A stretch of DNA of 64,000 bases from Strigamia acuminata. Taxonomy: Eukaryota. How positions within the stretch are numbered: position 1 is the stretch's first letter; each line of letters begins with the position of its first letter. This document shows positions 252 to 18,029 of the stretch, piece by piece. Made by a program: the position numbers and the translations under genes. Where the stretch lies: positions 29,512,001 through 29,576,000 of the forward strand of contig OX442314.1 of NCBI GenBank assembly GCA_949358305.1, in the 5' to 3' direction. The notes beneath the pieces were generated by a model. It saw only the letters and a program-made list of their open reading frames with translations, did no database searches and was not told the origin of the DNA.

Positions 252-1315
252 TGTGGTGACCTCAAATATTCCTATTTGAGTGCGCACCATATTTCCAAAT
301 TGTCTTATAAACATATTCAACAAGCTTATATGTTTTGTTTCAATGTAAATTGAAATAAAACATACATTAATAAAATATAAAACAAGACACAATATTACCC
401 AAATAATATTGTGTTTTGCAGCAAGTTTTGGCCCAGCAACAGCGTCAACCAATCGCGCTGCAGCGTGCATTGCTTTGATGATGCTGCTAGGCGTGTGCCT
501 GGGCGGAGCATCCCTTCCCCTCGCGCGTGCCCGGCTCGATTGTTGCACACGACCCGAAGGCGGCCGTGTGTGATCTTCATGCAACTCGTCATCTGCGCAG
601 CTTTTCTGAGCAGATTTAGAAGTGAGCCAAACGGTTTTGGCCCACTCTTCCCGCATTCTTGATTCTGCTTCCAAACCATTCACATCTGTGTCAAACTTAT
701 GCCAACCATTGCTAAGTGTGATCTGTGATATCTGGAAGAGTTGAGATTCATTGCTGGTCCGTGCCAACTGTACGGAATAGCGCCTTTCTGCTTGAATTAC
801 TACGCGTAATTTAAGCCATTTCTGTGTGGAATTGACATAGAGCTTGCTCTGTCAATTTGAAGGCTTTGTGTTGAGTTTAACTCCACAAAGCGAACTGTGT
901 TAAGACGGATTGTTACGTCGAGCTTGCTCCGTAATAATCACTTTCACTGTGTGTGAGAAGTATTCTCGTGTCGAGCGTGCTCCACGAGGATTTTAGAATA
1001 TTTAGCAACGTATTTTAGCGTCGAGTTTACTCCGCTAAAATCCCGCGCTCACACGACGCCGTCGACGCCATCTTGGAGCCAACGGTCAACTGTGAGTGTA
1101 CATTTGAAGAAGAAGCCAGATCGACCCCAAACATTTTAAATAATACCTCCTTTGTATTTTGAACGATTAAAACTATCTAATTTTTCCTTTACTCTGTGTA
1201 AAATCATTCCCCTAGACAAACATTTGGCCACAGAGTAGAAGTCCTGTACGGCATCTCTACGACGATTGCTTATTGAATTTACATAATTTAATAAGTAAAA
1301 ACCCGGATCGCCGCA
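252..1315 (+). repeat. 5' LTR
   Basis: Starts TGTGGTGACC and ends GGATCGCCGCA (imperfect terminal inverted repeat). Repeated at offset 11734; ORF-track translations inside both copies are identical. Confidence 0.97.
790..1054 (+). other. Structured RNA domain in the LTR: five bulged TAR-like hairpins (830-857, 863-891, 908-939, 962-991, 1012-1041) plus hairpin 790-816
   Basis: Each unit is an 8-10 bp stem, a UA/UU/UC bulge, then GAG-loop-CUC. Lower stems differ in sequence but keep pairing; the only non-Watson-Crick pairs are G-U on the + strand. Confidence 0.85.
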
Positions 1316-1317
1316 CT

Positions 1318-1335
1318 TGGGGGCCCGTCCGGGAT
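1318..1335 (+). promoter_or_regulatory. Primer-binding site, tRNA-Pro type
   Basis: TGGGGGCCCGTCCGGGAT lies 2 nt after the 5' LTR and differs by one base from the MLV tRNA-Pro PBS TGGGGGCTCGTCCGGGAT. Confidence 0.9.
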
Positions 1336-1407
1336 AGTTTTGATTGTTAAAATTCGATTTTTGCAAAAAAATCCATTATTTCCATTGTTCTTTTTCAATT
1401 TGACAAA

Positions 1408-4302
1408 ATGGCGACGCCAATGCAAATTGTAAAACGACAGCGAGGTCGACCAAGCACTCAGAAACGAGCAGCGACGGTTTTGCCGGCTCTCGAGCCTGAA
1501 ATGCTTATGGAGAAAATTATTTCCGAGGAAATAACACCAGTTCCAGATCCGAAACAACTTAAGGATGCTGAAAATGAAGTTGCTAGAGCATTAAGCGCTT
1601 CAAGTGCGAGTTCTAACGACCAAGAACTCCCGCCACTTCCACTGGAGGAAGTGGAAAATACGTTACGTGAAATGGAAAGTGAATCGTCTCACGAATCACC
1701 TCCTCGCATGACCATGTTGGATGCTTTGAGAAATCAAGCACGCCAGGATGGCGCCCAAATAACGGACGACATGACGGTGGAAGAGATTCATCGCGCCATG
1801 ATACGACTTCACACTGACCGAGCCGTTTCAAATTTAAAATTTGAAATGGAACGGAAAGAAGCAGAGCTTCAACAACAAAAAGCTGAGGTTGAGCTTCAAC
1901 ACATGGAACTCAATCGACAAAATGAGGAATTTCTAGCCCAAAAAGCTAGAGAATACCGATTAAAAGGTGAAGTGGAAGATCTTTCTAAAATGAACGCTAG
2001 AAATGAACTTTCAATTCGCTCACACCAAGAGGCGCGAAGACAGCTCGAGCTTACCAAAAGTAAGCTGGAGCAGAAAAATAAAGAATTGATTGATTTGGCA
2101 GACCACTACCAACGCAATCATAATCAATTAGTGAGATATGCTGCTGAATTAGACACACGTGCTAAAACACAGCGTACTCGCGAGAGCAAAATAGCTAAGC
2201 GTGAAGATGAGATTTTCCACTCGCTGGATCAACCCAGTACGAGCGGACAAGTCAAGTCTAGCGACCCTGCTAAGCGATTACAACCAGAAGAATCGCAAAA
2301 TCAAATAAATGAGAATGAAATTCTCCGAGCTGATTTGTTGCGCGCTCAAGAAGAGCTTGCAGAAATGAAAGATCGTTTGCAAGCAAGGAATTATACTGAC
2401 CAATTGGTGCAACCAGAAATGGCTGCGCCAACTGTTCCTATTTTGACTCCCGAAACAATAACAATTTCTGTTGTTTCAGAGTTAAGTAGCCAATCTGGAT
2501 TATCGAGTGATGACGACCAACGTTCGCGTCGTCGCCATCGCTCAAAAAGAAAACGTCCTTCAGATTCTGAGGAACGGAGAGCTGATCGCAATCCACTTCC
2601 TGGTAATCGAAATCCTATTTTTCACAACAGTGACCGACTGTTGGGGATGGTAGACGATCGAAATAGACGGCATGAAACTGGTATTCATGTTACTCGAACG
2701 ATACCACTGGCTCAACAGCAAGACTCGTCAAAAAGAAGTCGACGAGACACGAATCCAGCACGCGAACCACCCGACGGACATGAAAGCCCGCCAGGTGGGG
2801 GTCAGTATAGAAGAAATCCACCAGATGGAGGAAATCCAGATGGACACGGAGATGGACCACCTGGAGGTGGACGTCGACCGCCAGACGATGACGGCGACCC
2901 ACCCGACCCACCTGAAACACCACATTTTAACACGCCTTCAAATTCACAATCTGATTCAAGGTCGGATTCTGATGTGAATGCGCAACAAGAACGCGATAAT
3001 CGACATCGATCTCATCGACGTCGACATCGAGGCCATTCTTCTCGGCGTAATACACATTATTACACCGCTGAAGAAATTGATCGATTATTAGCTGATCGTC
3101 GATCTTCCGATCGATCTGACGCTACTGCCGATAATGCTGACATCGCATTACGACAGAAAATTGCCCAATATACTGCAATCAACTGGACACACGATCTAGT
3201 TGACGAAAGGACTATTAGATGGGATCACATCAAACCCGCTTTATTCGATGGAGAATGGGAAGCTGGATCCACTCTTTTAGATGAAGTTTTACGAATTTCA
3301 AGGTTGAATGGCATTGCATGTCACACTGCTTTGAAAAGAGTAGTACCAAAAGCTCTTATAGACCGAGCTGAGAAATGGTTTTATTCTAAACAATTTCAAA
3401 ATTGGAACCACTTTGTAGAAGAATTCATGACTGAGTATGGAGAGTCAAGTGAAGACTTATTACAAATGTGGGATAATCTTTCTCAAAATAAAGGCGAAAG
3501 TCTTCGCTCTTATTTAAGAAGGACTGAGGATTTATTGGTCACTCTCCCTTATACGATGGGAGATGCAGCCATTGATCGTCAATTCCGACGTGGATTGACA
3601 GATTATTCAAAAAATGTTCTACTTTCAGTACGAGCACCTTATCCGGGTGGTTTCGCTGAATTAGCCAAATTTATGCGAGCCAATCAAATAAGGATTGACG
3701 AAAATTATAAAGCTTATCTACCAGCTGATGAAAAAGTTGCGTATGCTAAGCGACAGCAACGGAGAAAGGAATTAGCTAAAGATACACGTTTTGCTAATAC
3801 CCCTCTTTTGCAACCCCCAAAACGAGGAGATTTTTTGGCAGAGACTGCTAAGGAATCTAAAAAGGGATCGGATGGGAAAAATCCACATCCAACCCCTAAA
3901 GCTCACTTAGCCGAAGTGACAGAAATGGAAACTGTTTCTGAACCAGAGAAATCTGACTCGGAACCAGAAAGCGAGGCTGCAGCTGCTTTATTAGCCCGTA
4001 ATAACGCAGTAGCTCGAAAATTTGGACCAAAGATGGCACCTAAAAACGTTACTTTTGGTTCACCAAAGACAGACGCGCTCAGTAGATCGAAGTCGCCGAC
4101 CCCTAAAAAGGACGAAGCCAAACGTTCAAGTTCGCCTTCGCCAAAAGTCGCGAAATCGCCTGCTACTGACCCGTGTAATATTTGTAAAAAATTGGGACAT
4201 TGGGCTAAAGAATGTCCTGACAGAAAATCGAGCAAAGACAAGATTATAGAAGAGTTCGAGAAATCGATGAAATCAATCGGCGAACTTCTAAAAAACTTGT
4301 AA
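1408..4302 (+). CDS. gag: Gag polyprotein, 964 aa (long coiled-coil/disordered N-terminus, capsid-like region, CCHC zinc knuckle)
   Basis: First ORF after the PBS; knuckle CNICKKLGHWAKEC; capsid-like segment (AEKWF...WNHFVEEF...QNKGESLRSY). Confidence 0.92.
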   Translation: MATPMQIVKRQRGRPSTQKRAATVLPALEPEMLMEKIISEEITPVPDPKQLKDAENEVARALSASSASSNDQELPPLPLEEVENTLREMESESSHESPPRMTMLDALRNQARQDGAQITDDMTVEEIHRAMIRLHTDRAVSNLKFEMERKEAELQQQKAEVELQHMELNRQNEEFLAQKAREYRLKGEVEDLSKMNARNELSIRSHQEARRQLELTKSKLEQKNKELIDLADHYQRNHNQLVRYAAELDTRAKTQRTRESKIAKREDEIFHSLDQPSTSGQVKSSDPAKRLQPEESQNQINENEILRADLLRAQEELAEMKDRLQARNYTDQLVQPEMAAPTVPILTPETITISVVSELSSQSGLSSDDDQRSRRRHRSKRKRPSDSEERRADRNPLPGNRNPIFHNSDRLLGMVDDRNRRHETGIHVTRTIPLAQQQDSSKRSRRDTNPAREPPDGHESPPGGGQYRRNPPDGGNPDGHGDGPPGGGRRPPDDDGDPPDPPETPHFNTPSNSQSDSRSDSDVNAQQERDNRHRSHRRRHRGHSSRRNTHYYTAEEIDRLLADRRSSDRSDATADNADIALRQKIAQYTAINWTHDLVDERTIRWDHIKPALFDGEWEAGSTLLDEVLRISRLNGIACHTALKRVVPKALIDRAEKWFYSKQFQNWNHFVEEFMTEYGESSEDLLQMWDNLSQNKGESLRSYLRRTEDLLVTLPYTMGDAAIDRQFRRGLTDYSKNVLLSVRAPYPGGFAELAKFMRANQIRIDENYKAYLPADEKVAYAKRQQRRKELAKDTRFANTPLLQPPKRGDFLAETAKESKKGSDGKNPHPTPKAHLAEVTEMETVSEPEKSDSEPESEAAAALLARNNAVARKFGPKMAPKNVTFGSPKTDALSRSKSPTPKKDEAKRSSSPSPKVAKSPATDPCNICKKLGHWAKECPDRKSSKDKIIEEFEKSMKSIGELLKNL

Positions 4303-4335
4303 GCGCGCATCCAGACGGTCTAGTGGATGCGACGC
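4290..4335 (+). promoter_or_regulatory. -1 programmed ribosomal frameshift signal (gag-pol)
   Basis: Slippery heptamer A AAA AAC (4290-4296) is in gag phase. A stem GCGCGCATCCA/TGGATGCGACGC starts after a 6-nt spacer. The -1 frame is open into pol. Confidence 0.85.
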
Positions 4336-7300
4336 CTACCGCCTCGGAAAATGAACTAACACCATCTCAAATTTTAGATGAATTTTTGAATACTCAGATT
4401 AAATTAGAATTAGAAAATAATTTAATATTTCCAAAAATTGATGTTTCCAGTTTAAGGCTTGTGCTGCAAAATGAAAACATCACTGAAGAATTTTTTAAAG
4501 AAAAAGTTCAACAATTAAAAGTTGATTGGGAATCTAAAATGAAAGATGCTGTTACTTTACTAGATGGAAAAGCTAGGCCCACACCTGAAATCACTGAAGG
4601 ATCAGATAAAATTGATTTACCTGGTCTTGATGAATGTATTGAAAAATTACTGGCTACAACATTAGTCACTAATGATTTATTGGACGAATTACCATTGGAT
4701 CCGCCGATAAAAATTAAACCACCGCGACGTTTTAAATGCAAGTACGCGGACATACCAAACAGCAATGATTTGCCGACGATTCGATTGCAGACGGCAAACG
4801 GTATGATAACAGGGATGTTAGACTCTGGAGCTAATCGAAGCTTCATGGCCTACTCCGTAGTAATTTCACTGAAACTGGAAGATGAAATTCGACCAATTGG
4901 ACCGGATGTGAGAGTTACGACTGCTTCAGAAGATGTAGTCCCTGAAGGAACTCTCCTACTTTCTTTTGCGTGGACACACGGGATGTTAAGTCATCCATTC
5001 ATAATTTTAAGAAACAAATATCCTATTATTTTATTAGGATGTGATTTCATGAATCGACTCAATATTCAACCAAATCCTAAGACCATGTCTTGGAATTTTG
5101 TCAAGTCTTTGAAAGAAGATTTACCTTTTGTTCCTCAAGCGATTCTTGATCGTTATCAAGAGTTCCTTGATCCACCTGAAGAAATAATGAATAGCGACTT
5201 TATTAAAGTAAATCACATGAAAGCTGGTTCCGCCACTGCATGTCAAGCTAAAGTTGCCGATGAAGAAAATATAGTACAAAGACTTGTTAGCGACGCTAAT
5301 TTGTCAATGGAAAATAATTTAATGCTTGAAAGAGTATTAAAGAAACATGAAAAGATTTTATCACGCCGACCAGGTAGAACACACCTCGTTAGGCATGAAA
5401 TTAAACTGGACACTAAAGTTCCTATTAGAGTTCCGTTTAAAAGCGTAAATCCACAGAAACGTGAAATTATCCGTCAAATCTGTCAAGATATGTTGGATAA
5501 TGGGTACGTTGAACAAGCCACTGGAGACTATGGGATGCGAATAGTTCTAGTGATGCGTCCGGATTGTGATCCGAGACTATGCATTGATTTTAGACCACTC
5601 AATGCACATACATTATACGACCCTCCTCAAATGCCCAGCATTGAGGAAATCTTGCGAGAACTCGGAAGGTTTGAATGGGTCACAACAATAGATTTGTCAA
5701 AAGGCTATTGGCAAATAGAGGTTCATCCGAATGACCGTGCTAAAACTGCGTTTTGGAGCCCTTTGGGTCGACTTCAATTTCGAGTCATGCCCTTTGGTCT
5801 CGTAAATGCGCCGTCAACTTTTCAAAAGTTGATAGAAAAAATTTTGGGGGACGCCTATCGAAAATTCGCATGGGCATACCTCGATGATATAATTATTATA
5901 TCAAAAAATTTTGAAGAACACATGATTCATCTGGAAGAAATTCTGAGTAAACTTGAAAATGCAAATCTTCATGTTCATCCAGAAAAATCAAAATTTGGCA
6001 GAAAAGAATTAACTTTTCTTGGTTACAAGTTAAGTGTTCAAGGAGTTAGTGTCGACCCTAAAAAAGTCGCAGCTATTAAAGAAATGCCAGCTCCTTCGAA
6101 TTTGAAAGAGTTGCAAAGATTTTTGGGAATGGTGAACTTTTTTCACCGATTACTTAAAAATCTTGCAGTAATGACAGAACCTCTACGTCCTTTACTCAAA
6201 AAGGATGTGGAATTTATTTGGTCAGAAATTCATCAAGAAGCTTTTGATCAAATAAAAGATGCTTTGACAAATGCAGAAACAATGGCCATGCCTGATTTGA
6301 CAGAACCATTTATTGTGCATACCGACGCCAGCAGAAAAGGACTTGGCGCCGCGCTTATGCAAATGAGGGAAATCGATGATCAAAATATAGAAGTGCCTTG
6401 TGTTTATGCCAGCAGAAGTTTACAACCTGCTGAGATAAATTACAGCGCCACAGAATTGGAGTGCCTAGCGGTAATCTGGGCATTACGTAAATTTCGACAT
6501 TACTTGGAATTTACAACATTCATAGTAAGAACTGACCATCAAGCACTAAAATGGTTGATGCAGTTAGACGAACCTGCCGGAAGGTTAGCGCGTTGGCAAA
6601 TGGAGCTAATGCGCTACTCTTTCGAAATACAATATATTAAAGGTCCACTAAATGTTTTAGCGGATGCTTTATCCAGATCACCGATTGATAAACCGGAAAA
6701 TCCTGAAGATGATGGAGATAATGATGAATTATTATCTTACTGTCCATCACCACAACGAAATTGGAAAATGGGAAAATTTCATGAGCTTCCTGTCTCCACG
6801 CTGGAGGAAAAGGAAGATCACGAATTCGTCAACTATTGGACTAAAATCTATGACCCCTCTGAGGAATCAGATGACGTCATAAGAGCGCAAATTTCAAGGA
6901 AATTCCAAGTTCCTTCGTCAAATGTTTTAATAAAAGCATTTGTCGCCAAAATTGTAGAGCGTCTTGATTGTGAACCCCCCACAAGGGAAGACATAATCAA
7001 GGCCCAAAAAGAAGATAAAGTTTGCCAATTAATGCGTAATTTTTTAAATTGTAATCAATTTCCGCCTGACGTCACAACGCGACTCCAGAGGAAACAATAT
7101 AGAAAACACGCAACCACCTTCTTAATTGAAGATGACTTATTAATGCAATTTCATCCCACAATGTCTGATGAATTGGGGGAGGATGGGAGAGCACTCAAAG
7201 TTTTTGTACCTCAGACATTGAAGTATAAAATTATTTGGCTAATGCATGGCCACCCACTTTCTGGCCACCCAGGAATTGCAAGGACTCTTTATCGAGCACG

Positions 7301-8771
7301 CCGAATTTATACCTGGAAAGGCATGAAATCGGACATTACGAGATTCATTCGACATTGTGAGCGTTGCCAAGCTTGCAAGCCTCGAACGAAAGGACAAATT
7401 GAAGCAGCGCAAATGGGTCCTTACAGCCCATTTGACTGCCTAAGTGTTGATTTGACCGGCCCAAAACCTCGGACGCGCAAAAACAACACACATATTTTAG
7501 TCATACTTGACGTGGCAACTCATTGGCCAGAATTATATCCAATGTGTAACCCCACTGCTGGAAAAGTAGCAAATTGTATTTATCACCTTTCCATGAGCAT
7601 GGGATTCCCTCGTAAAATTATTTCTGACAACGGCCCGCAATTTCGTGCCCAAGTCTTTAAAAAATTTTGTGAAAAGTTCAAGATGGTTCCAACACCAACT
7701 TCAACGTATCACCCACAAGCTAACCCGGTTGAAAGGGTTAACCGTGACATCAAATATTTGGTTGCAATTTATTCATCGGTTCATTCCAAATGGGACGAAT
7801 ATTTGCGTGAATTTGCATTTAGTTTGAGAACTACGGTGACGAGAGGAAGAGACTTCTCTCCCGCATTTCTTAACTTTTTTTGCGAACTCAGAGTACCTTG
7901 GGATCCAAGAATACCTGAAGGAATTTTGGTCGTAGATCCAAAAAACCCACATTTATACGTGCAAAAATTAGAAGCCGTTATCGCCGAAACATATCAGCAC
8001 ATGATGTCACACGTGTTAGATTTGCGTAGACGAGTTAATCTTAAAAAAGAAGGTGAGAAGTTCTCCAATTTTAAATTAAACGATTTAGTTTGGAGAGATT
8101 CTCATGTTTTGTCGAGCGCTGCCCGCGGCATTGCAGCTGGCATCGCTGATAAAAGAACAGGACCATATGTAATAACCAAAGTATTACAGGGAGGATCCGT
8201 AGAATTGAGAAAGCTAGAAAATAACGAAATATTTCCAGCTGTCCATTCGTCTGAATTAACTCCGTATTTCCCGAGTTTCGATCAGGAAGTATGGTTAGAA
8301 GGCGAAGAAGTCGGTCAAAAGACTGAAAATATAATTAATACGTTAGATGACGATGAATTAAAGAAAATACCTGTCGATAATTCATCCAAACCACAAATGG
8401 AGTCAGACCTCGTGAATAACGACGTTGAACTTCGTGACAGTTTCAAAAAGCTTGAAATTGCTAAAAAATTAAATAAAAAGGTGTTTTTAGAAAAGAAACA
8501 AAAAACATCTGAAATAAAAGACTCATCTGACTCAGTCTCCGATGACAATGAAGACGGCGATTTAAATACAATAAATCCCTCGCCGACAAAGAGATATAAT
8601 CTTCGGACTCGTAAACCGAGAGGAAAAAACAACATGTGTCTTCTCCCCTCGATAACCTCGAGATCCAGGGATCAGCCGTATGACGTAAGGAGCAATTCCT
8701 CAAGCCATACTCAAACCAATCAAACAGTAAGATTGGATGACGTCACTAACAGCGACGTTACCCAAACGTAA
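4290..8771 (+). CDS. pol: Pol polyprotein (protease, reverse transcriptase, RNase H, integrase), expressed by frameshift
   Basis: Protease LDSGA; RT YLDD; RNase H TDAS...ELECLA...TDHQAL...ADALSR; integrase HHCC (HGHPLSGH...CERC), DLTG...SDNGPQF...VERVNR and a GPY motif; no internal stops. Confidence 0.97.
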   Translation, partial: KKLVSAHPDGLVDATPTASENELTPSQILDEFLNTQIKLELENNLIFPKIDVSSLRLVLQNENITEEFFKEKVQQLKVDWESKMKDAVTLLDGKARPTPEITEGSDKIDLPGLDECIEKLLATTLVTNDLLDELPLDPPIKIKPPRRFKCKYADIPNSNDLPTIRLQTANGMITGMLDSGANRSFMAYSVVISLKLEDEIRPIGPDVRVTTASEDVVPEGTLLLSFAWTHGMLSHPFIILRNKYPIILLGCDFMNRLNIQPNPKTMSWNFVKSLKEDLPFVPQAILDRYQEFLDPPEEIMNSDFIKVNHMKAGSATACQAKVADEENIVQRLVSDANLSMENNLMLERVLKKHEKILSRRPGRTHLVRHEIKLDTKVPIRVPFKSVNPQKREIIRQICQDMLDNGYVEQATGDYGMRIVLVMRPDCDPRLCIDFRPLNAHTLYDPPQMPSIEEILRELGRFEWVTTIDLSKGYWQIEVHPNDRAKTAFWSPLGRLQFRVMPFGLVNAPSTFQKLIEKILGDAYRKFAWAYLDDIIIISKNFEEHMIHLEEILSKLENANLHVHPEKSKFGRKELTFLGYKLSVQGVSVDPKKVAAIKEMPAPSNLKELQRFLGMVNFFHRLLKNLAVMTEPLRPLLKKDVEFIWSEIHQEAFDQIKDALTNAETMAMPDLTEPFIVHTDASRKGLGAALMQMREIDDQNIEVPCVYASRSLQPAEINYSATELECLAVIWALRKFRHYLEFTTFIVRTDHQALKWLMQLDEPAGRLARWQMELMRYSFEIQYIKGPLNVLADALSRSPIDKPENPEDDGDNDELLSYCPSPQRNWKMGKFHELPVSTLEEKEDHEFVNYWTKIYDPSEESDDVIRAQISRKFQVPSSNVLIKAFVAKIVERLDCEPPTREDIIKAQKEDKVCQLMRNFLNCNQFPPDVTTRLQRKQYRKHATTFLIEDDLLMQFHPTMSDELGEDGRALKVFVPQTLKYKIIWLMHGHPLSGHPGIARTLYRARRIYTWKGMKSDITRFIRHCERCQACKPRTKGQIEAAQMGPYSPFDCLSVDLTGPKPRTRKNNTHILVILDVATHWPELYPMCNPTAGKVANCIYHLSMSMGFPRKIISDNGPQFRAQVFKKFCEKFKMVPTPTSTYHPQANPVERVNRDIKYLVAIYSSVHSKWDEYLREFAFSLRTTVTRGRDFSPAFLNFFCELRVPWDPRIPEGILVVDPKNPHLYVQKLEAVIAETYQHMMSHVLDLRRRVNLKKEGEKFSNFKLNDLVWRDSHVLSSAARGIAAGIADKRTGPYVITKVLQGGSVELRKLENNEIFPAVHSSELTPYFPSFDQEVWLEGEEVGQKTENIINTLDDDELKKIPVDNSSKPQMESDLVNNDVELRDSFKKLEIAKKLNKKVFLEKKQKTSEIKDSSDSVSDDNEDGDLNTINPSPTKRYNLRTRKPRGKNNMCLLPSITSRSRDQPYDVRSNSSSHTQTNQTVRLDDVTNSDVTQT

Positions 8772-8813
8772 CTTCCGGTATTTGAACTGATCACTTCGCG
8801 TCTGAGTTCACTT
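8681..8813 (+). promoter_or_regulatory. Candidate internal promoter for the accessory gene
   Basis: TGACGTAA 8681, CCAAT 8716, ATTGG 8732, TGACGTCA 8738, ETS-type ACTTCCGG 8771, Inr-like TCACTT at 8791 and 8808, followed by a GTAAGT donor at 8895. Confidence 0.5.
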
Positions 8814-8979
8814 CGATCTCACACGTGTGCTAAGTGCTCATCTCCGAAAAACCAAAAGCGAAACAACTGGATAAATTCTCCCGAATCTTCAATTGTAAGT
8901 AGTTTTTTCTTTGGAATTTTCCAAAGAAAAACTAATAAATTAATTTTCGTTTTTCTTTCCATTTGGATTAGTCGTTCAA

Positions 8980-11812
8980 ATGGAAGGAGAGGAACCGAAA
9001 GAAGGAAGCGAAGCCGGCGCCAACAGCCTCGAATTAGAGACAAATTCGACGCTGCTTGGTTCCGCAAACACTTCGAATACATCCGTGGATGTCACCGAAG
9101 AATCCGCCGAAGCGTCCGCCGAAGCTCAAGCCGCTCTGGCCGACGCTGCTGCCCGTTTGCCAGTCGCGCTGCCCCGACTACGAGGAGGCCTATTCGCCGA
9201 TCCGAACGGCGAAACTCGTGCACAGAGACACGACCGGGTAAATAATTCAAAATAAAATTACCTTTCAGTCATGAAAAGTAATTAAAAGTGCATTTTCACT
9301 CGGAAAAAGCGAAAAGTTCGTTGGTAACGCCTTCGCAAGAAGGCGCCGCCATTTTTATCATCAGATGGCGCTGTGTCTCATTTTTGAGGCGTTGCTACGG
9401 CAACGCTCCAAACACTGAAACATAGCCGTCGGAAACAACGTTTTTCACGATTTTTCAAACATTTTGAAAAATTTAACGAATCTAAACTGTCGAATGAAAT
9501 CTCACCCGTGATTTTATTCACTGAAAATTCGGAAATAATTAATTTTAACGAAAAAATGGATTTTAATTATTTCTTCGAATATTTTACAGATCATCCAGCT
9601 TCGGGAGACGCATCTCGAACTACACCCCGATGTTCCAACAGCTCCTGGTGTCTGGCGACATGCATTGCCGCCAGAAATCATCAAGTCCAAAGGAAGACTG
9701 ACGTTTTGGGCGGCCCGACACAAATTCTCCAAGGCCTTAAACAAGCGATGGGGAACAAAGTTTCGGATCGCCTACTTAATCGATGGATTCGGTCATCGCG
9801 ACGCCCTCGAGTGGGCAATGAAGCGCGACACCTTCGGACCACTGCGAAACGTGTTGCTCGACTTCGCCTTCACAGTGATCGCTCAAGAAACGCGAGACCA
9901 TCGCCGTTACTTCAACGCTCCTGCGTGGGAGCGCCGACAGATTTTGGAGGACATTTTCCAACGCTTGGACCAAACCAAAGCCGAGGTTGTACGCCTCTAC
10001 CACGAATCTTTCCGTGTAACAACGGACGGAAAGAAACGTTGGGTGCCGACATGCCAGTCGGAAATGCATCAGCTAGCCATGGGCGGATGTTTCCATGCTG
10101 ATTTCGTGCCAAACCCGTATCCAGAGCCTGAGCCCCGGGTACAGGTCGCTTCCACCATCCACGTGGTGCCGCCGCGCTCCACGTCGAGGTCACGATCATC
10201 GAGGTCGCCCTACAGTGGCCGTCGCTCCTCCCCAACCCAGTCGTCGGGGGAAGGCGCCATTGGAGGGTTACCTCCACTCCAGAAGACTCGTCATCGCTCA
10301 CATCACCGACGCGAGTCGACGCCGCCAAAAAGACATTCGAAGTCCGTGTCGAGACCCGCATCCCGAAGCCGACCTCGAGTGCAATCGCGCCAATCTTCCA
10401 CGAGGAGTTCACTCTCGTCGCGCGAAGAAAGATCCAACGCTTCTCAGCTTAGCGCTTCCACCTCCTCCTGCCAGATTGACTGGTCGGACGAGATAGCGAA
10501 GGAAGATCGTCGCATCGCCGCTTTGCAAGCCGGTCAAGGAGACGTCAACACCTCTTTGCCGTTCGCTTGCCGTCCAGTCACCAGCGACATGCGACCAGAC
10601 CCATCGGTGCCCGTGCCACAAGTGACATCGGTCATCCGTTTTGAGGGATACGTCTCTCACGAACCATTTCCCGCACAGGAGTGCGCTGATCTCTGGAGGC
10701 GATTCTCATCGTTTCCCGAGACAGCCCAAACGATGTACCTCGCGCATCTGGACGAATACCAACTCGCTCAGATCCGCGAAGGAGAGAAGGAATGGCAATG
10801 GCTTGCCCGAGAGCTTGCGTCGTGCAAGTCCGACAAGCAACTGCAACGGACGCTGCAGAAAATGAACAGGAAATTGTCGGAGGGACTTCTTCGAATCCTG
10901 TTCCAAGGAGTCTTTCCCGACCCACAGATTGCTCTGGCGGCCGCCACTCGATTGTGGACCGTGCCGTTAGGGCTTCCACGAGCCTTGCTGGACGATTGGG
11001 AGTCAGTTCGCCCCGATCCTCCAACGATGCTCGCCGAATTGACGCAACAAGCCGAGGCGACTGGCGAAACTCCGGCTGGATCCGCCATTCGACTACGGCA
11101 GGAATGGGCTGCGCTGAAGCAGCGACGCGCAGCAGAACGAGCTACCGCCCGTCCCGCTGGCGCACCACCGTCATCCGCAGCTCCACTCCACGCTGCCATC
11201 ACGGCAACGTCGAGTGTTTCCCGTGCAACCGAGGCACCGAGTTGCAACATCTCGTCTCCGATGGAATGGCTCGACAGCGACGATCGCGAGTTCGTCGTGC
11301 CTGTGGCCAGCGGTGCCAGACCAAAGACGCGCACCCCGGCTTTGCGCAGATCCAGATCCCTCTCGATCTGCAAAAAGTCGCCGCCACCGCTGCCTCCTCC
11401 AAAGGATTCGCCGCCGAGAGATAGGGGATCGAAAATGGCCACCTACCTCACTGCCTATCAACGTTTGCGCTCTTTATACGCTTTTTGCTACATAACGAGC
11501 GCGACGAAAACGATTCTCCAGAACAGCGAGGATTTATGCAACCGAGTCCTCGCGTGGCTGGAAAACCATATCAAGGAACAACAGCCGTGGATCCTGCATC
11601 AACGTCTGGTGTTCGCTCGAATTACGCCTCAAGACCCGCAGGAGTATTTCGAGATGGGTTTTGGACGAAGGGATGGTGTGGACCGCATCAAGCAAGTGTG
11701 GCTCCACATCAACCCTGGCTTCCGGTCAGGACCAAACGCCGGCCGACCTTTGTGCACCGTCACCGAGCACAAAGATCCAAACGATCATTCGACGGACATG
11801 TTGCCGAAATAA
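8980..11812 (+). CDS. Spliced accessory protein of unknown function (~826 aa; coding exons 8980-9237 and 9590-11812), Arg/Ser-rich, not env-like
   Basis: Donor CGG|GTAAAT (9238) and acceptor TTTTACAG|ATC (9589) join the 91-aa and 715-aa ORFs in frame (phase 0). An upstream intron at 8895-8971 has GTAAGT, a CTAAT branch point and a pyrimidine tract. No signal peptide or transmembrane segment is visible. Confidence 0.8.
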
Positions 11813-11971
11813 TTAGGGAACACGCCCGTTCATTAAAAATAATTCCTTTTTTATTTTTATATTGTAATAAAAAAGAATAAATATATATCCTGTTCCATTT
11901 TACTTTGAAACCTTGTGTATTTATTCCTATACTTACCTGTCTCTTTTTGGAAAAGAATAAGATTCTTTCTT

Positions 11972-11985
11972 AAAAGGGGGGAAAG
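11972..11985 (+). promoter_or_regulatory. Polypurine tract
   Basis: AAAAGGGGGGAAAG immediately before the 3' LTR. Confidence 0.92.
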
Positions 11986-13049
11986 TGTGGTGACCTCAAA
12001 TATTCCTATTTGAGTGCGCACCATATTTCCAAATTGTCTTATAAACATATTCAACAAGCTTATATGTTTTGTTTCAATGTAAATTGAAATAAAACATACA
12101 TTAATAAAATATAAAACAAGACACAATATTACCCAAATAATATTGTGTTTTGCAGCAAGTTTTGGCCCAGCAACAGCGTCAACCAATCGCGCTGCAGCGT
12201 GCATTGCTTTGATGATGCTGCTAGGCGTGTGCCTGGGCGGAGCATCCCTTCCCCTCGCGCGTGCCCGGCTCGATTGTTGCACACGACCCGAAGGCGGCCG
12301 TGTGTGATCTTCATGCAACTCGTCATCTGCGCAGCTTTTCTGAGCAGATTTAGAAGTGAGCCAAACGGTTTTGGCCCACTCTTCCCGCATTCTTGATTCT
12401 GCTTCCAAACCATTCACATCTGTGTCAAACTTATGCCAACCATTGCTAAGTGTGATCTGTGATATCTGGAAGAGTTGAGATTCATTGCTGGTCCGTGCCA
12501 ACTGTACGGAATAGCGCCTTTCTGCTTGAATTACTACGCGTAATTTAAGCCATTTCTGTGTGGAATTGACATAGAGCTTGCTCTGTCAATTTGAAGGCTT
12601 TGTGTTGAGTTTAACTCCACAAAGCGAACTGTGTTAAGACGGATTGTTACGTCGAGCTTGCTCCGTAATAATCACTTTCACTGTGTGTGAGAAGTATTCT
12701 CGTGTCGAGCGTGCTCCACGAGGATTTTAGAATATTTAGCAACGTATTTTAGCGTCGAGTTTACTCCGCTAAAATCCCGCGCTCACACGACGCCGTCGAC
12801 GCCATCTTGGAGCCAACGGTCAACTGTGAGTGTACATTTGAAGAAGAAGCCAGATCGACCCCAAACATTTTAAATAATACCTCCTTTGTATTTTGAACGA
12901 TTAAAACTATCTAATTTTTCCTTTACTCTGTGTAAAATCATTCCCCTAGACAAACATTTGGCCACAGAGTAGAAGTCCTGTACGGCATCTCTACGACGAT
13001 TGCTTATTGAATTTACATAATTTAATAAGTAAAAACCCGGATCGCCGCA
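11986..13049 (+). repeat. 3' LTR (second copy of the hairpin array at 12564-12775)
   Basis: Direct repeat of 252-1315, followed by the AATT TSD. Confidence 0.97.
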
Positions 13050-13432
13050 AATTGTATAGAATGTTAATGTAAATTAGATTTGGAAATTTGTATTCCCATT
13101 CATTTCACAAGCCTAAAAATTAATGACTAAAGATCCTATGTTTCCAGCTTTTAAAATTTATGGGTTTATAACCAGATGGCGAACATAATTCAAAACTAAT
13201 TCAAAATTTATATTTATTAAATATGTGATTGGTTTTATCATTTCTACTTCAACAAATAATTAGATTATTATTGTTAGAGTTAGATAAATTAAAAAGTTGA
13301 CACAAATTTTGTAGTGTAACATTTTAATTTGATTCTAGAATTTGTTACACCATCATATCAATGCGAGTTTTTATCACTCCCTTCAGTTGATTTTGCTTAT
13401 TTTTTGTATTAGGCTATGGTTATGGTGATGAG

Positions 13433-15062
13433 TACTACGAGCGACATGGGTTGGCGCGACACGCACATTCGCACCTACGCATCTGGGTAGTTGCGTGTAA
13501 GCATGCCGGTGGTATGATCTGGCGCGACACCGTGATGTTTAGCGACACGCAAGTATTACGTGCCTCTCGTGTTTAAAGTTTGATTTTTTCGATAAATGAA
13601 AATTTTATGTGTATTTTATTCGTCCCACCTATGTAAATAAATTAAAAGCACCTGAGTTTCAAGTTGTGATACATAATTCAATCGCAATCCGAAATTGCAG
13701 CAAAGAAATCCGCTGTTTGGTCCAGTTTAAAAGACATCTTATATGCATAATTCCTTCTGGCCATATTAATTTTTTTTTTTAAATTATTAAATTGCTTGAA
13801 CTTTTGCTATACGTATGATTTGATTTGTACACGGCATTTGCAAGTTAGTGCACGCTCAAAGTCTAACAGGTTAATCTAAGCCAAAATATTTGGCTGCAAG
13901 ACACGATTTGCTCGCGAAGTAAACTGTGTTCATGATTTTTCACTTGGTAATTAACTTGATGTTTTCACCCAACGTTTTCTGCAAGTTTATTGCATTTCCA
14001 CGGGGTATGTCTGGCTAAAAAATGGCGTGACCTGGGAATTTGGACAAAGTGACGAAACCATCCACAATTCAGCCGACCAGAACTGCGTGAAAATTCGTCC
14101 CAAAAACCGTCAAACTGTCACGGAAGATAAAAAACAAGTATTCATCCTTGTGTATGCACGAAGGCGATTGTCGCGCTTATTCATCCGCGTGTATGCACGA
14201 AGGCGATGTCGCGCTTATTCATCCGCGTGTATGCACGAAGGCGATGTCGCGCTTACGCATGCCAAGCACAGGGGTTGGCGCGACGTCGCGCTCCCGAATA
14301 CGTAGTCAGTGTTGTGCGCGGTCCGCGGTCCTGGTACCGCGGTCCTGTTCCGGCAGCTAAAATGAACCGCGGTCCCGGTCCGCGGTCCCTGGACCGGGAC
14401 CGCGTTTTGCGTTACATCTCGCGGTCCACGAGAAAACACGAGATCTCGTGTTTTCTCGTGGATCGCGAGATATACCGCAAAATACTGGAATCTCGTCGTT
14501 TTCAAAATGCGTAGGTAAAACGTTCACTGCCTAGCGCAAACGTCAAACACACAAAAGCAAACATTCAATCCAATTGAAATGAAATGACAATCGAGTGTAA
14601 TAGCATTTTTCATAAATTTTCATAATTTTTTCAGTTTTAATTAGTTTTAAAACGTTTTTTAATGCTATTACACTCGATTGTCATTTCATTTCAATTGGAT
14701 TGAATGTTTGCTTATGTGTGTTTGACGTTTGCGCTAGGCAGTGAACGTTTTACTTACGCATTTTGCGGTATATCTCGCGATTTCGTGTTTTCTCGTGGAC
14801 CGCGAGATGTACCGCAAAAGCGGTCCGCGGTCCACGGAATTTTAAAAGGAAAGCGGTCCCGGTCCGCGGTACTGGACCGGCCTTTTAAAAGTACTGCGGT
14901 CCCGGTCCGTACCTGCCGCAAAAGGAACGCGGTCCCGGTCCCGGTCCAGGACCGCGGACCGGCGGTCCTGGATCGCCGGTCCGGGACCGAGACCGCGCAC
15001 AACACTGTACGTAGTGTATTCGAGAGTGCGACGTCGCGCCAACCCATGTCGCGCGTCGTACA
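13433..15062. mobile_element. Non-autonomous inverted-repeat element hosting a nested MITE
   Basis: GCGACATGGGTTGGCGCGAC at ~13441 is inverted at ~15035-15054; internal ~38-bp tandem repeat x3 at ~14140-14255. Confidence 0.55.
14307..15007. mobile_element. hAT-type MITE
   Basis: 17-bp terminal inverted repeats (TIRs) CAGTGTTGTGCGCGGTC; 8-bp TSD TACGTAGT (14299-14306, 15008-15015); internal inverted repeat with ~105-bp arms (~14505-14763). Confidence 0.88.
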
Positions 15063-15089
15063 GCACCCCATGATTATAGCCTTGGTTTA

Positions 15090-15430
15090 TGAATTCAGGA
15101 TTCAAGATTATTGGATTCAAGACTTATGAATTTTGAATTCAGGATTCAGGAATGAATTCAGGATTTAGAATTTATGATTCAGGAATGAATTCAGGATTTA
15201 GAATTTATGATTCAGGAATGAATTCAGGATTTAGAATTTATGATTCAGGAATGAATTCAGGATTTAGAATTTATGATTCAGGAATGAATTCAGGATTTAG
15301 AATTTATGATTCAGGAATGAATTCAGGATTTAGAATTTATGATTCAGGAATGAATTCAAAATTCAGTAATTGATTTAGGATTCAGGATTCAGAAATGGAT
15401 TCAGGATTCAGAATTCAGGATTCAGAAGTG
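15090..15430. repeat. 33-bp minisatellite (AGGAATGAATTCAGGATTTAGAATTTATGATTC)n
   Basis: About six perfect units with degenerate flanks. Confidence 0.95.
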
Positions 15431-15959
15431 AATCCTCTGCATATTTTCAGGATGTATTGAATTTTTATTGAAATTTCTAGGGATTTATTTTTACGAGATT
15501 TATTTTGAGATTTAACTAATTTAGAATTTTTATTAAAAAAGAAATATCAAATTTTATATTTGGAAAGTTGTTATTTACATTTGGAAATCTTAACTTTACT
15601 GGTTGAGAAATATGTGTTTAACTGTTTGGAAATTTAATATATCATGCTATGAAAAGTAGTTTGGAAACGGTTGCATTCAGTGTTGGGAAGTCATTGGAAA
15701 TTTGATGTTTGTACAATTTGGAAATATCGCATTTCAATTATATTTCCAAAATATTTTATCGACGAAAATCTAATTTTTTTTTCAGTGTTAAGTCAAATAC
15801 AATCATTAAATGGTATTTATTGACCTGTCCTTTAATTTTAATTAAAATTAAAATTCTAGGGCGTAATTGTGATTATTCTGAATTTTGAAACGATTTTTAA
15901 AAATACAGTTCAAAGTCTATTTTTGAACGTATCGCAATTTTGAAGTATCATACGTTAAC

Positions 15960-18029
15960 ATGGAGCAATTTCTAAAAGAAAACGAGTCGGCTGAGATTTC
16001 TGTTCGACAGGTGGGACAAAACAATGTATGCACAACTGGAAATTCGGTAACAATACATTTTCAAAACTTCAGTAAGCGCTAAAATCGAAAACAATGTCCG
16101 ATGATTTTAATTGTTCATTTGAATGTTGTTTAATTTTCTTTTACAGGTCTTACACAAAGTTTGGAAAAACCGTATTCTCATAGTAAGATTTCATAAAAAA
16201 ATTTTGTGATAAACTCTTATCATTCTTTCATTTTCTTTTGTTTTTTTTTATTTGTTTTGTTTTAGACAGTTCTGATATCAATCCTGATGTTTTGAAAAGT
16301 TTAATACCAATATTTGAGAACTACAGGTGTGTAATATTACCAGACATTGCCACAGAAATTGATGATTTTTTATCGCAGGGTGGAAAGATTTGAAATAAAA
16401 ATCAAAAGTCACAGAGGAATGATAAATCTTGATGTTCATCCAATGGATACAATCCAAAGCATCAAACTAAAACTACAATTGGTGTATGGAATACTCTTCA
16501 GCAAACAATACCTCATATTTGAAGAAAAAGTGCTGGATGATGTCGAGAAATTACAAGACTGCAAACTCTCCGATGCCAGTCTCATACACATGGTCTACTC
16601 ACTAGAAGAAACCGGAACTGTAGTATTTTTCAAACGTATACTCGGACGTCTGTTTTGTCTTCGATTTAACCAAGAAACTACAATAAGAGACGTAAAATCA
16701 AAAATTGAGGAAACCGAAGAAATACCTGTCAAGAGGCAACGCTTGTTTCTTGATGAAAGCACGACTTTGAGAGATGAGTGCAGAATATTTGATTATAACA
16801 TCGGCAACAAAATAGTGAAGATTGCCATTGCTGTGGAGCAAGATGAAATGAGGAAAGTTATGGTCAAGTCACTGACTGGAAAAATGTTGTACTTGGTTGT
16901 TGGGCTTTACGACACGGTCGAGGATTTAAAATGTCAACTCGAAGCCAAGGACGGAGTTCCACGAGAAAGTGTGCGAATCATTGTCAACAGTAAGAGTTTG
17001 AAAGATGATTGCATGCTATGTACTTGTTTCGACACTAAGATTACGATATTTCACCAATTCCGGAGACTGAAGGGAGGGGAAGAATTTACTCCTGATTTAA
17101 GCATCCACACTGCAATTGGTGAAATTATTTCACTTGGTCCCGTGATACCTTTTAACTCTAGAATTCTGCTGCGATCCGGGTTTATGTGAACAATTTCTAA
17201 TAAATTGCACACAACACCGCAGTTGAATGCCACTAAGGACTTATATCGATATGGCCTTAAATTATCTAGGGTTAATTTTACGGAAATAAAATACAGTTTT
17301 ATCAATAAAAACACACAATCTTTTATTCGGTTAAATACAATAAGATACGAGAATAAATGTGATAAAATATGGAAAGAAACAATAGAAATACTCGCAACGA
17401 CTGTTGCGAGTCAAAAGCGCGGCAATGGCGCTTAAGAACGGCTGTTGTACAAGGTTTTGTACAAGAAAAGCTGGTGAATCTTGAGTATTAACACGGTCCA
17501 CTATCAGTACTTTTGTCGGAGCAGAAAGCAATGATGTTGTGGGTTGTGTTATTTTGTCAAGAGTCCCGTTCGAAGCTAGGGCGTGAGCCCGACACACTTC
17601 GAAATTGCGCAGATAATCTGCGCAATTAGTTAAAACTGGTGCGACAAAGGATTATTGCACCATAACGGCTAATTACCGTTTTCACCCTGGACAACCTGGG
17701 GTGAGATGTGCCTAGGGAAGATTTCTCCCCTCGGTCACATGATCTGACTTAACGTGTGCCAAGCCAAATTAATTAGAAGATAAAATAAATTCACCTTCTA
17801 AGTGGTGAAACAGTTTGAGATCACTACACTTCTTGCCGTTAAACAACAGGTGTTTCAAGCAAGGGGATTGTCAGTTTGGAGTCAAAGACTATTCATTGTG
17901 AATGAAGAACTGGACGACAATAAAGCGGTGAATGAAGAACTGGACGACAATAAAGCGTTGAATGACTATTTTACTCCACGGAAAAATCATCCGCCGGTTG
18001 TTTTTGAGATTTTAATGATGATGATGTGA
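15960..18029 (+). CDS. Poly-ubiquitin-like protein paralog 1 (four UBL domains, fourth interrupted); exons 15960-16071, 16147-16182, 16266-16326, 16379-~17150, ~17802-18029
   Basis: GT-AG introns keep frame. UBL signatures: LDVHPMDTIQSIK...QYLIF, VKSKIEETEEIPVKRQRLF, VKSLTGK...LEAKDGVP...RRLKGG. The fourth domain resumes after ~650 bp of unrelated sequence. Confidence 0.75.

What the first reader, a model, noticed from the sequence alone, without database searches (positions are those of the whole stretch)
830..1041. Array of five TAR-like bulged hairpins in a Ty3/Gypsy LTR
Seen: AATTGACA-TA-GAG(CTTG)CTC-TGTCAATT; GCTTTGTG-TT-GAG(TTTAA)CTC-CACAAAGC; GATTGTTACG-TC-GAG(CTTG)CTC-CGTAATAATC; ATTCTCGTG-TC-GAG(CGTG)CTC-CACGAGGAT; ATTTTAGCG-TC-GAG(TTTA)CTC-CGCTAAAAT. 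The lower stems are largely unrelated in sequence yet all pair. Their only irregular pairs are G-U on the + strand. What is invariant is purine, U-N bulge, G-C, A-U, G-C. GTGTGAG (951-957) and CTCACAC (1048-1054) can enclose hairpins 4 and 5. Established: HIV TAR is a stem, a U-led pyrimidine bulge and GAGC...GCUC; the bulged U with the following G-C and A-U pairs forms the arginine-binding pocket, and HIV-2 TAR has 2-nt bulges and tandem hairpins. Inference: this is a selected, multimerised RNA site for an Arg-rich protein. The CUGGGA cyclin-T loop of HIV TAR is absent. I do not know of such an array in an invertebrate retrotransposon.
Basis: partly seen in the sequence, partly recalled or inferred. 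Interest (0 to 1): 0.92.

Follow-up and report, generated by a model that had tools for sequence, protein, structure and literature searches.

The report
TAR-like hairpin array in centipede retrotransposon
A young jumping gene in what is likely a centipede genome carries five RNA hairpins that each repeat the protein-binding core of HIV's TAR element and keep it intact across copies, and they likely serve as a landing pad for the element's own arginine-rich accessory protein, which would be a retrovirus-style control circuit in an invertebrate retrotransposon.

Summary
Five hairpins at 829-1041 (again at 12563-12775) share purine, U-N bulge, GAG, short loop, CUC, pyrimidine. No such pair arose in 20,000 shuffles. 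They lie in the 1,064-bp identical LTRs of an intact Ty3/gypsy element, likely of a Strigamia-like centipede. Selection acts on the plus-strand RNA: lower stems covary between hairpins. Among listed copy variants, 0 of 35 core positions vary, against 4 of 5 second bulge positions and 19 of 62 linker positions. This matches the published Tat-binding determinants of TAR. The array lies in a 706-nt ATG-free stretch ending at the gag start (12 expected), so it is likely transcribed leader. The element also encodes a spliced, non-env orphan protein under purifying selection, with an Arg/Ser-rich patch. No binding, start site or expression was tested, and no related LTR from another species was found. 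Best reading: an arginine-pocket array for that protein, acting like Rev, Rex or C. elegans CERV (0.30). Rivals: Tat-like activation (0.22), Gag capture (0.20), host protein (0.15). It is not a TAR member, because the cyclin T loop and a Cys-rich Tat are absent.

The parts
252..1315 (+). 5' LTR, 1,064 bp, TG...CA
   Evidence: 100% identical to 11986-13049 over 1,064 bp; 4-bp target duplication AATT at 248-251 and 13050-13053
449..506 (+). CCAAT box (449) and GC box (501): candidate upstream promoter elements
   Evidence: motif scan only; function inferred
702..1407 (+). ATG-free stretch ending at the gag start codon; inferred 5' leader
   Evidence: 0 ATG against 12 expected, 13 CAT; longest ATG-free run on the + strand of the window; 702-1041 alone 0 against 6.4, P 0.0016
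790..816 (+). Hairpin 0: 11-bp unbulged stem ahead of the array
   Evidence: pair probability 0.99; the one listed variant inside it (805) is in the loop
829..858 (+). Hairpin 1: A-U below a UA bulge (UU in most copies), GAG/CUC
863..891 (+). Hairpin 2: G-C below a UU/UC bulge, GAG/CUC, 5-nt loop
908..939 (+). Hairpin 3: G-C below a UC bulge, GAG/CUC
   Evidence: no variant among the 40 rows shown
962..991 (+). Hairpin 4: G-C below a UC/UU bulge, GAG/CUC
1012..1041 (+). Hairpin 5: G-C below a UC/UU bulge, GAG/CUC
1045..1099 (+). Predicted stem that hides a candidate splice donor (GTGAGT, 1092-1097)
   Evidence: motif (middling score); predicted paired; no joint from it among the 15 of 49 joints shown
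1158..1177 (+). Segment holding the candidate poly(A) hexamer ATTAAA (1166-1171), predicted to pair with 1333-1352 at the 5' end only
   Evidence: only A(A/T)TAAA between 375 and 1315; duplex -17.5 kcal/mol, best of 231 element windows, 0 of 5,000 shuffles, 0 of 2,212 host windows
1318..1335 (+). Primer-binding site (tRNA-Pro-like by recall; no tRNA in the window to compare)
   Evidence: position 2 nt after the LTR end
1333..1352 (+). Leader arm that pairs with 1158-1177; lies outside the LTR
1408..4302 (+). gag, with long N-terminal extension, Arg/His-rich patches (nt 2521-2556, 3001-3042), capsid and one CCHC knuckle
   Evidence: Pfam PF03732, PF00098; patches
4221..8771 (+). pol open frame (RT, RNase H, integrase), -1 to gag; candidate slippery heptamer at 4290
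8980..9237 (+). Accessory gene (ORF3), inferred first coding exon, 86 acidic residues, after a candidate acceptor at 8971
   Evidence: in frame with the next exon across a phase-0 intron; its two listed variants both change the residue
9238..9589 (+). 352-nt GT..AG intron of ORF3
   Evidence: joined form in contigs of runs X1 and X2, not X3
9590..11812 (+). ORF3 main exon, 740 aa: helical regions, Arg/Ser-rich patch with an Arg/His motif (nt 10289-10312); no transmembrane segment
   Evidence: 9 of 13 listed variants synonymous against 30% expected, P 0.004; highest 19-residue hydropathy 1.09
11972..11985 (+). Polypurine tract
11986..13049 (+). 3' LTR, with the second copy of the array at 12563-12775

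Best explanation
Five hairpins in the LTR of a young Ty3/gypsy element repeat the U-bulge plus G-C/A-U/G-C core of HIV TAR and keep it across copies, and they likely form arginine pockets on the element's RNA for its own spliced accessory protein (ORF3), which would assemble on the five sites and protect or export the unspliced genomic RNA as Rev, Rex and CERV do. Shown by sequence and calls: the hairpins, their covariation and plus-strand constraint, the ORF3 intron, and purifying selection on ORF3. Inferred: transcription starts upstream of about 790 and the poly(A) signal is at 1166, which puts the array in R at both RNA ends (about 0.8). The bulged U forms a triple with the A-U pair and binds arginine (about 0.75). 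The ligand is element-encoded (about 0.75) and is ORF3 rather than Gag (about 0.65 of that). The step controlled is splicing or export rather than elongation (a little over half of that).
For: Core invariance, a free second bulge base, and wobble or compensatory stem changes match the TAR mutagenesis in PMC11885821: U23 essential, position 24 free, U25 deletable, flanking G-C pairs not swappable (passages). ATG-free leader. The element makes a spliced RNA, so its genomic RNA faces the intron-retention problem. ORF3 is non-env, selected, and has 17 RS/SR dipeptides in 100 residues plus an Arg/His motif. [quoted passage not shown] Rex and Rec elements lie at the 3' end or in U3R of the LTR, and Rex's is on all plus-strand transcripts (PMC3185809 passages). 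A candidate donor lies 50 nt after hairpin 5. Five sites suit a protein that multimerises (inference).
Against: No binding or expression data. The Arg/His patches are low-complexity and occur in Gag as well. The five NES-like patterns in ORF3 are loose regex matches. An array in R would not by itself tell spliced from unspliced RNA if ORF3 mRNA starts in the LTR. The 1092 donor scores only middling (rank 14) and its use was not seen. All conservation evidence comes from one element family in one species label. The variant table is cut to 40 of 58 rows and is not phased. One loose end upstream of 829 in run X3 looks like a decayed extra hairpin. The core is the TAR/7SK pocket, which in known cases serves P-TEFb control, not export.
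Confidence: 0.3

Rival explanations
1. Tat/TAR-like transcription control. ORF3 would bind the nascent leader through the five pockets and recruit elongation or anti-termination factors, raising full-length transcription in a positive feedback loop. ORF3 itself could come from an internal promoter after pol.
For: The core equals the TAR bulge and 7SK ASM3 at secondary-structure level (PMC6189040 passages). Position in the inferred R region is as for TAR, and HIV-2 TAR has tandem hairpins with 2-nt bulges (PMC1474061 passages). The first ORF3 exon is acidic. 8772-8979 has no ATG and holds a donor at 8895 and an acceptor at 8971; AATAAA hexamers follow the ORF3 stop.
Against: No cyclin T loop: the loops are 4-5 nt and vary. 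ORF3's 11 Cys are scattered. The array spans more than 200 nt and starts at least 40 nt into a structured leader, mostly beyond the usual promoter-proximal pause zone (recalled) unless the start lies near 790.
Confidence: 0.22
2. Gag capture or packaging signal. The Arg/His patches in Gag's long N-terminal extension would bind the five pockets, select the element's RNA and nucleate particle assembly.
For: Gag has two strong Arg/His-rich patches and only one CCHC knuckle. The array is in the gag mRNA leader. Repeated sites suit an assembling protein. The intron-less form in X1 and X2 may be reverse-transcribed spliced RNA.
Against: The array lies upstream of the candidate donor and would mark LTR-started spliced RNA too. 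This reading gives ORF3 no role. Known packaging signals mostly lie after the primer-binding site and bind nucleocapsid knuckles (recalled).
Confidence: 0.2
3. Host-protein site. The hairpins would mimic 7SK to titrate HEXIM and free P-TEFb near the element, or would recruit a transport adaptor such as Egalitarian-BicD.
For: 7SK carries the same pocket. Egl needs two stem-loops on one transcript and favours U-A pairs (PMC13186709 passages), and one U-A pair is invariant in all five lower stems.
Against: In human 7SK a G-C pair below the bulge abolishes HEXIM binding while Tat still binds; 4 of 5 hairpins have G-C there. Egl signals need 3'-strand bulges; these bulges are on the 5' strand and the upper helix is only 3-4 bp.
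Confidence: 0.15
4. No protein pocket. The hairpins would be a structural spacer, translation brake or strand-transfer aid that arose by tandem duplication, or GAG-N4-CTC would be a palindromic DNA site for a dimeric factor.
For: Hairpins 3-5 share 4-5 of 8 arm letters, as expected from duplication. Duplication alone gives a shared core at first. The LTR has other stable hairpins without the motif.
Against: The lower stems diverged by double changes while the core stayed fixed. The base next to the fixed U varies freely. G-U pairs and wobble-type variants are tolerated on the plus strand only, which a DNA site would not require.
Confidence: 0.1

Closest known systems
HIV-1 and HIV-2 TAR with Tat
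   Same: Purine-pyrimidine pair, U-led bulge, then G-C, A-U, G-C and a fourth Y-R pair; 2-nt bulge and tandem hairpins as in HIV-2; inferred place in R.
   Different: Five units, not one or two. No conserved hexaloop for cyclin T1. Not shown to be at the very 5' end. No Cys-rich Tat. The host is an invertebrate and the element a Ty3/gypsy.
Arginine sandwich motifs of 7SK stem-loop 1
   Same: Bulge pyrimidine placed to cap a stem pair, with a Watson-Crick pair before the bulge; several pockets on one RNA (PMC6189040).
   Different: The pockets sit on separate hairpins, not along one helix. There is no paired GAUC repeat. 4 of 5 have the G-C base that excludes human HEXIM.
Cer1 CERV of C. elegans (Ty3/gypsy)
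   Same: [quoted passage not shown]
   Different: CERV shares exons with gag and has a Cys loop and a G-protein-like domain. The passages read name no RNA element for it (0 hits for 'stem-loop' or 'response element'). Here there is a defined repeated RNA motif and an Arg/Ser-rich helical protein.
HTLV-1 Rex/RxRE and HERV-K Rec/RcRE
   Same: Response element in the LTR and a spliced regulatory protein (PMC3185809).
   Different: Those regulators are small (Rec 14.7 kDa); ORF3 would be about 826 aa. The elements are not described there as arrays of TAR-core hairpins.

Membership tests
Ty3/gypsy LTR retrotransposon (Metaviridae) | gag, then pol with RT, RNase H, integrase in that order | tested here: met
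   Pfam order
Ty3/gypsy LTR retrotransposon (Metaviridae) | TG..CA LTRs, primer-binding site, polypurine tract, short target duplication | tested here: met
Named Ty3/gypsy lineage (e.g. Osvaldo/Ulysses, recalled) | RT groups with named reference elements | tested here: inconclusive
   Tree of 116 RT-RNase H rows puts it with unnamed arthropod and fish elements at 46% identity or less; no named references were at hand
Errantivirus (env-bearing) | Third ORF is a membrane glycoprotein with a transmembrane anchor | tested here: not met
   highest 19-residue hydropathy 1.09 and 0.77 in the two exons; no Pfam env family
Lentiviral TAR | U-led bulge followed by G-C, A-U, G-C | tested here: met
   5 of 5 hairpins; determinants from PMC11885821
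Lentiviral TAR | Conserved apical hexaloop for cyclin T1 | tested here: not met
   loops of 4-5 nt with four different sequences
Lentiviral TAR | Located at the 5' end of the transcript (HIV-2: +1 to +123) | tested here: inconclusive
   ATG depletion places it in the leader; start site not mapped
Lentiviral TAR | Cognate Tat with Cys-rich domain and basic motif | tested here: not met
   no Cys cluster in ORF3; no Tat family hit
Lentiviral TAR | Trans-activation through P-TEFb | not testable with these tools
   needs reporter assays
Arginine sandwich motif | Bulge pyrimidine after a Watson-Crick pair, placed to form a triple with the stem | tested here: met
   secondary structure against the definition in PMC6189040
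Arginine sandwich motif | Base triple and arginine intercalation | not testable with these tools
   needs NMR or binding assays
7SK HEXIM site | A-U pair below the bulge (pseudo-ASM) | tested here: not met
   G-C in 4 of 5 hairpins; rule from human 7SK
Rev/Rex/CERV-type export system | Regulatory protein from a spliced mRNA | tested here: met
   GT..AG joint in X1 and X2; purifying selection on the main exon. The splice and the coding are shown; the regulatory role is not
Rev/Rex/CERV-type export system | RNA-binding motif and nuclear export signal | tested here: inconclusive
   Arg/His patch and five loose NES-like patterns
Rev/Rex/CERV-type export system | Required for export of unspliced RNA | not testable with these tools
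   needs cell assays
CERV protein family | Sequence or fold homology to CERV | tested here: inconclusive
   no homologue of any kind was returned; CERV itself was not compared directly
Egalitarian-BicD localisation signal | Bend from 3'-strand bulges | tested here: not met
   bulges are on the 5' strand in all five; rule from PMC13186709
Any Rfam family | Score at or above the family's gathering threshold | tested here: not met
   8 matches at E 1-8.6, all far below threshold

The most novel reading that the evidence does not exclude
An invertebrate Ty3/gypsy element has independently evolved a full Tat/TAR-type circuit: an orphan spliced protein binds a five-fold array of arginine-sandwich hairpins in R and switches on full-length RNA. 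This makes it a 'complex' retrotransposon whose RNA pocket converged letter for letter on TAR and 7SK.
Probability: 0.3. Interest if true: 0.92.

Novelty: new variant of a known kind. Interest (0 to 1): 0.76.

Why it matters
RNA response elements paired with a dedicated regulator (TAR/Tat, RRE/Rev, RxRE/Rex) mark complex vertebrate retroviruses. The one Ty3/gypsy regulator I found in print, CERV, has no RNA element named in the passages read. This element offers a candidate pair in one package: a small, five-fold repeated, naturally mutagenised RNA motif that matches the TAR arginine pocket, and an orphan spliced protein under selection. If binding is shown, it is a case of convergent RNA recognition. 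It would make testable whether TAR-type pockets are older and wider than lentiviruses, and how retrotransposons get intron-containing RNA made and exported.

Tried and rejected
No genome is held for this window, so copies could be seen only through two read lay-ups. No RNA holder listed; this says nothing on expression. Run X6 covered only three short diverged stretches and nothing of the array. Relatives: the RT search found none above 46% identity among the best 120 listed of 5,124. Protein-pattern scans found no locus in viral contigs or prokaryote genomes. The tandem-motif scan gave 3 viral and 35 metagenome stretches (34 loci listed); none of the 37 loci held the hairpins with lower stems or any gag, pol or ORF3 match, so I treat them as chance. 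Cross-species covariation is therefore untested. ORF3: no hit in the 7,997 candidates scored, in 1.84 billion representatives, Pfam (one weak Bcl-2 match at E 0.08, far below cut-off), PDB sequences or the Atlas. The full model was poor (pLDDT 38.9). A 170-aa helical part (pLDDT 68) gave no Foldseek hit and a best Z of 7.7 (rmsd 2.5, 91 aligned), which is ordinary for helical bundles. None of this shows a new fold. Rejected: the 951-957/1048-1054 enclosure; env identity of ORF3; the TATAAA at 306 as the genomic-RNA promoter, since five ATGs lie between it and 701, though uORFs are not excluded. The Arg-rich frame 8772-9245 has no ATG of its own before the candidate acceptor and is probably the shadow of the acidic exon, but its two variants do not decide this. 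Literature: 10 searches listed no report of such an array; ('TAR-like', retrotransposon, LTR, gypsy) gave 0 papers. Most subscription journals are not in the library and no supplements were read. Four look-ups of earlier findings returned nothing. No complex prediction was run, as the tool does not score RNA partners.

Full report
What the stretch is. Positions 252-13049 are one LTR retrotransposon. Its LTRs (252-1315, 11986-13049) are identical over 1,064 bp, with a 4-bp target duplication, primer-binding site and polypurine tract. gag (1408-4302) and pol (4221-8771, -1 frame) are open and carry capsid, CCHC, RT, RNase H and integrase domains in Ty3/gypsy order. The insertion is therefore very young. 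A host V-ATPase exon in the window is 90% identical to a Strigamia maritima protein, and no other listed hit covering the whole exon exceeds 77%, so the host is likely a Strigamia-like centipede. Three runs under one organism label hold many copies. Element contigs in run X3 reach depths of 2,000-3,000 against 27-49 for diverged ones, which suggests tens of copies, though the tool warns that depth is no copy number. The best RT relatives listed are 46% identical or less. A tree of 116 rows places it among unnamed arthropod and fish elements; I could not test a named lineage.

The observation. The five hairpins are present as described, and nowhere else in the window but the second LTR. Of 20,000 dinucleotide shuffles of the LTR, 3 held one such hairpin and none held two. 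The region folds at z = -4.59. In the 740-1420 ensemble all five form, with mean pair probabilities of 0.77-0.97; in some other folding contexts hairpins 1, 4 and 5 drop to 0.43-0.68. Aligned as paralogues, 55 of 55 cells pair and 7 of 8 lower-stem pairs show changes on both sides. None of 500 shuffles reach the covariation score, and slid registers pair at 43-53%. This control leans towards the structure, since it was drawn from the same five rows. The first and last loop bases also alternate between C..G and U..A, giving a fourth pair as in TAR. No Rfam family fits.

Selection among copies. One search lists 40 of 58 variant rows for 770-1075, unphased. Classed: 0 of 35 core positions vary (bulge U, GAG, CUC). 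The second bulge base varies in 4 of 5 hairpins, often commonly. 9 of 92 other stem positions and 19 of 62 linker positions vary (core against linker, P 9e-5). Of the 10 stem rows, five internal changes turn a Watson-Crick pair into G-U on the plus strand and one turns a terminal G-U into A-U. Two would break a pair alone but face a partner site that also varies: 832 with 855 (14.6% and 16.4% in X1) and 1036 with 1017 (4.3% and 4.4% in X1; in X2 and X3 the 1036 change is the commoner, so some mismatches may exist). Two break terminal pairs. Loose ends in the same output show, in words: a hairpin 5 form with A-U in place of G-C below the bulge, loop swaps between units, and an extra unit ahead of hairpin 1. 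One loose end looks like a decayed unit. A joint from 857 to 947 in three runs suggests relatives with other middle units. The constraint is thus on plus-strand RNA structure and on seven core bases per unit.

Match to TAR. PMC11885821 (passages) reports that U23 is essential, any base serves at 24, U25 can be deleted, and swapping G26-C39 or G28-C37 abolishes Tat binding. That is the pattern of fixed and free positions here. PMC6189040 (passages) defines the arginine sandwich motif and states that the TAR bulge and 7SK ASM3 share one secondary structure. It also reports that a G-C pair below the bulge abolishes HEXIM binding but not Tat binding; four of five hairpins have that G-C. HIV-2 TAR has two hairpins with UU and UA bulges and 6-nt loops (PMC1474061 passages). 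The cyclin T loop is absent here. The core is short, so convergence on a simple arginine pocket does not imply Tat's downstream partners.

Is it transcribed? No RNA data could be laid. Indirect evidence: 702-1407 has 0 ATG against 12 expected, with 13 CAT on the same strand, and ends exactly at the gag start. It is the longest ATG-free run on the plus strand of the window. The part up to the end of the array alone gives P 0.0016, the array alone only P 0.06. CCAAT and GC boxes lie at 449 and 501. The only poly(A) hexamer in the last 940 bases of the LTR, at 1166, sits in a 20-nt segment that pairs with 1333-1352, just past the primer-binding site and outside the LTR. This duplex is the best of 231 element windows, with 0 of 5,000 shuffles and 0 of 2,212 host windows as strong. 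A looser test (best of any 20-mer against a shorter shuffled leader) was reached by 20 of 300 shuffles. The stem can form only at the 5' end, which would hide the signal there. In the 3' context four of the six bases are still mostly paired in a weak local stem, so the contrast is partial. It could equally be a U5-leader stem. Together these place the array in the leader, probably in R.

The candidate ligand. After pol lies a further gene: an inferred acidic exon (8980-9237), a 352-nt GT..AG intron, and a 740-codon exon. The exact joined form stands in contigs of runs X1 and X2, not X3. The kind of these runs is not on record and their flat LTR excess looks like DNA, so the joint may come from reverse-transcribed spliced RNA. 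Either way the splice appears real. Of 13 listed variants in the main exon, 9 are synonymous against 30% expected (P 0.004); the list is the best-supported 40 of 561 rows. The protein has no transmembrane segment, scattered cysteines, and an Arg/Ser-rich patch with an Arg/His motif also found in Gag. Homology and fold searches are told under Tried and rejected.

Mechanism. Shown: the array, its constraint, the splice, and a selected accessory gene. Inferred: place in R, pocket formation, the ligand, and the step controlled. I rank a Rev/Rex/CERV-like role first (0.30). [quoted passage not shown] Rex and Rec elements also lie in the LTR (PMC3185809 passages). Tat-like activation (0.22), Gag capture (0.20), a host protein (0.15; Egl rule from PMC13186709 passages) and no pocket at all (0.10) follow. 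That an element-encoded arginine-rich protein binds the array at all I put near 0.6-0.7.

Comparison and novelty. It works like an arginine-sandwich or TAR core but is not a TAR member: the loop and the Tat protein tests were not met. Ten literature searches listed no such array in a retrotransposon. Passages of PMC13524379, PMC3601003 and PMC2774666 added nothing on it. The library lacks most subscription papers and I read no supplements. Both parts have known kinds (the pocket; the spliced regulator), but their joint presence in an invertebrate Ty3/gypsy LTR appears undescribed. Verdict: new variant of a known kind, interest 0.76. The main weakness is that all conservation evidence comes from one family in one species label and nothing functional was measured.

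Noticed in passing
window 1158-1170 with 8967-8979: The segment holding the candidate poly(A) signal can also form 13 pairs (-15.5 kcal/mol) with the candidate ORF3 acceptor just before the ATG at 8980; 0 of 2,212 host windows reached that energy, the best being -15.4. It may couple polyadenylation and ORF3 splicing, or be chance.
   Followed up: partly
window 8772-8971: ATG-free stretch after the pol stop with a donor-like GTAAGT at 8895 and an acceptor at 8971 (77-nt candidate intron); possible internal promoter or upstream exon for ORF3. AATAAA hexamers at 11866 and 11876 could end ORF3 mRNA before the 3' LTR.
   Followed up: partly
window 8772-9245: A 157-codon, very Arg-rich frame continues pol's frame past its stop and overlaps the acidic ORF3 exon. 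It is probably a shadow frame, but it resembles Tat/Rev basic regions and is not excluded as a product.
   Followed up: partly
window 329-418: Two AT-rich hairpins in the first 170 bases of the LTR, around AATAAA hexamers at 354 and 369 and TATAAA at 306 and 376.
   Followed up: no
window 1067, 1405, 9348: YY1/Pho-like motifs (motif recalled) after the array, at the gag start and inside the ORF3 intron.
   Followed up: no
window 6930-9103: A joint skipping 2,172 bases of pol at high depth in run X1 only suggests an amplified internally deleted form.
   Followed up: no
window 14268-15049: Nested inverted repeats (34-nt outer arms at 91%, 105-nt inner arms at 98%), likely nested MITE-like elements, followed by a 33-nt tandem array at 15088-15449.
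   Followed up: no
window 16335-17189 (+), 19412-20272 (-), 25462-26169 (-): Three diverged multi-domain ubiquitin-like genes in a cluster.
   Followed up: no
window 28919-29372: Exons of the V-ATPase 21 kDa proteolipid gene, used to place the host.
   Followed up: yes
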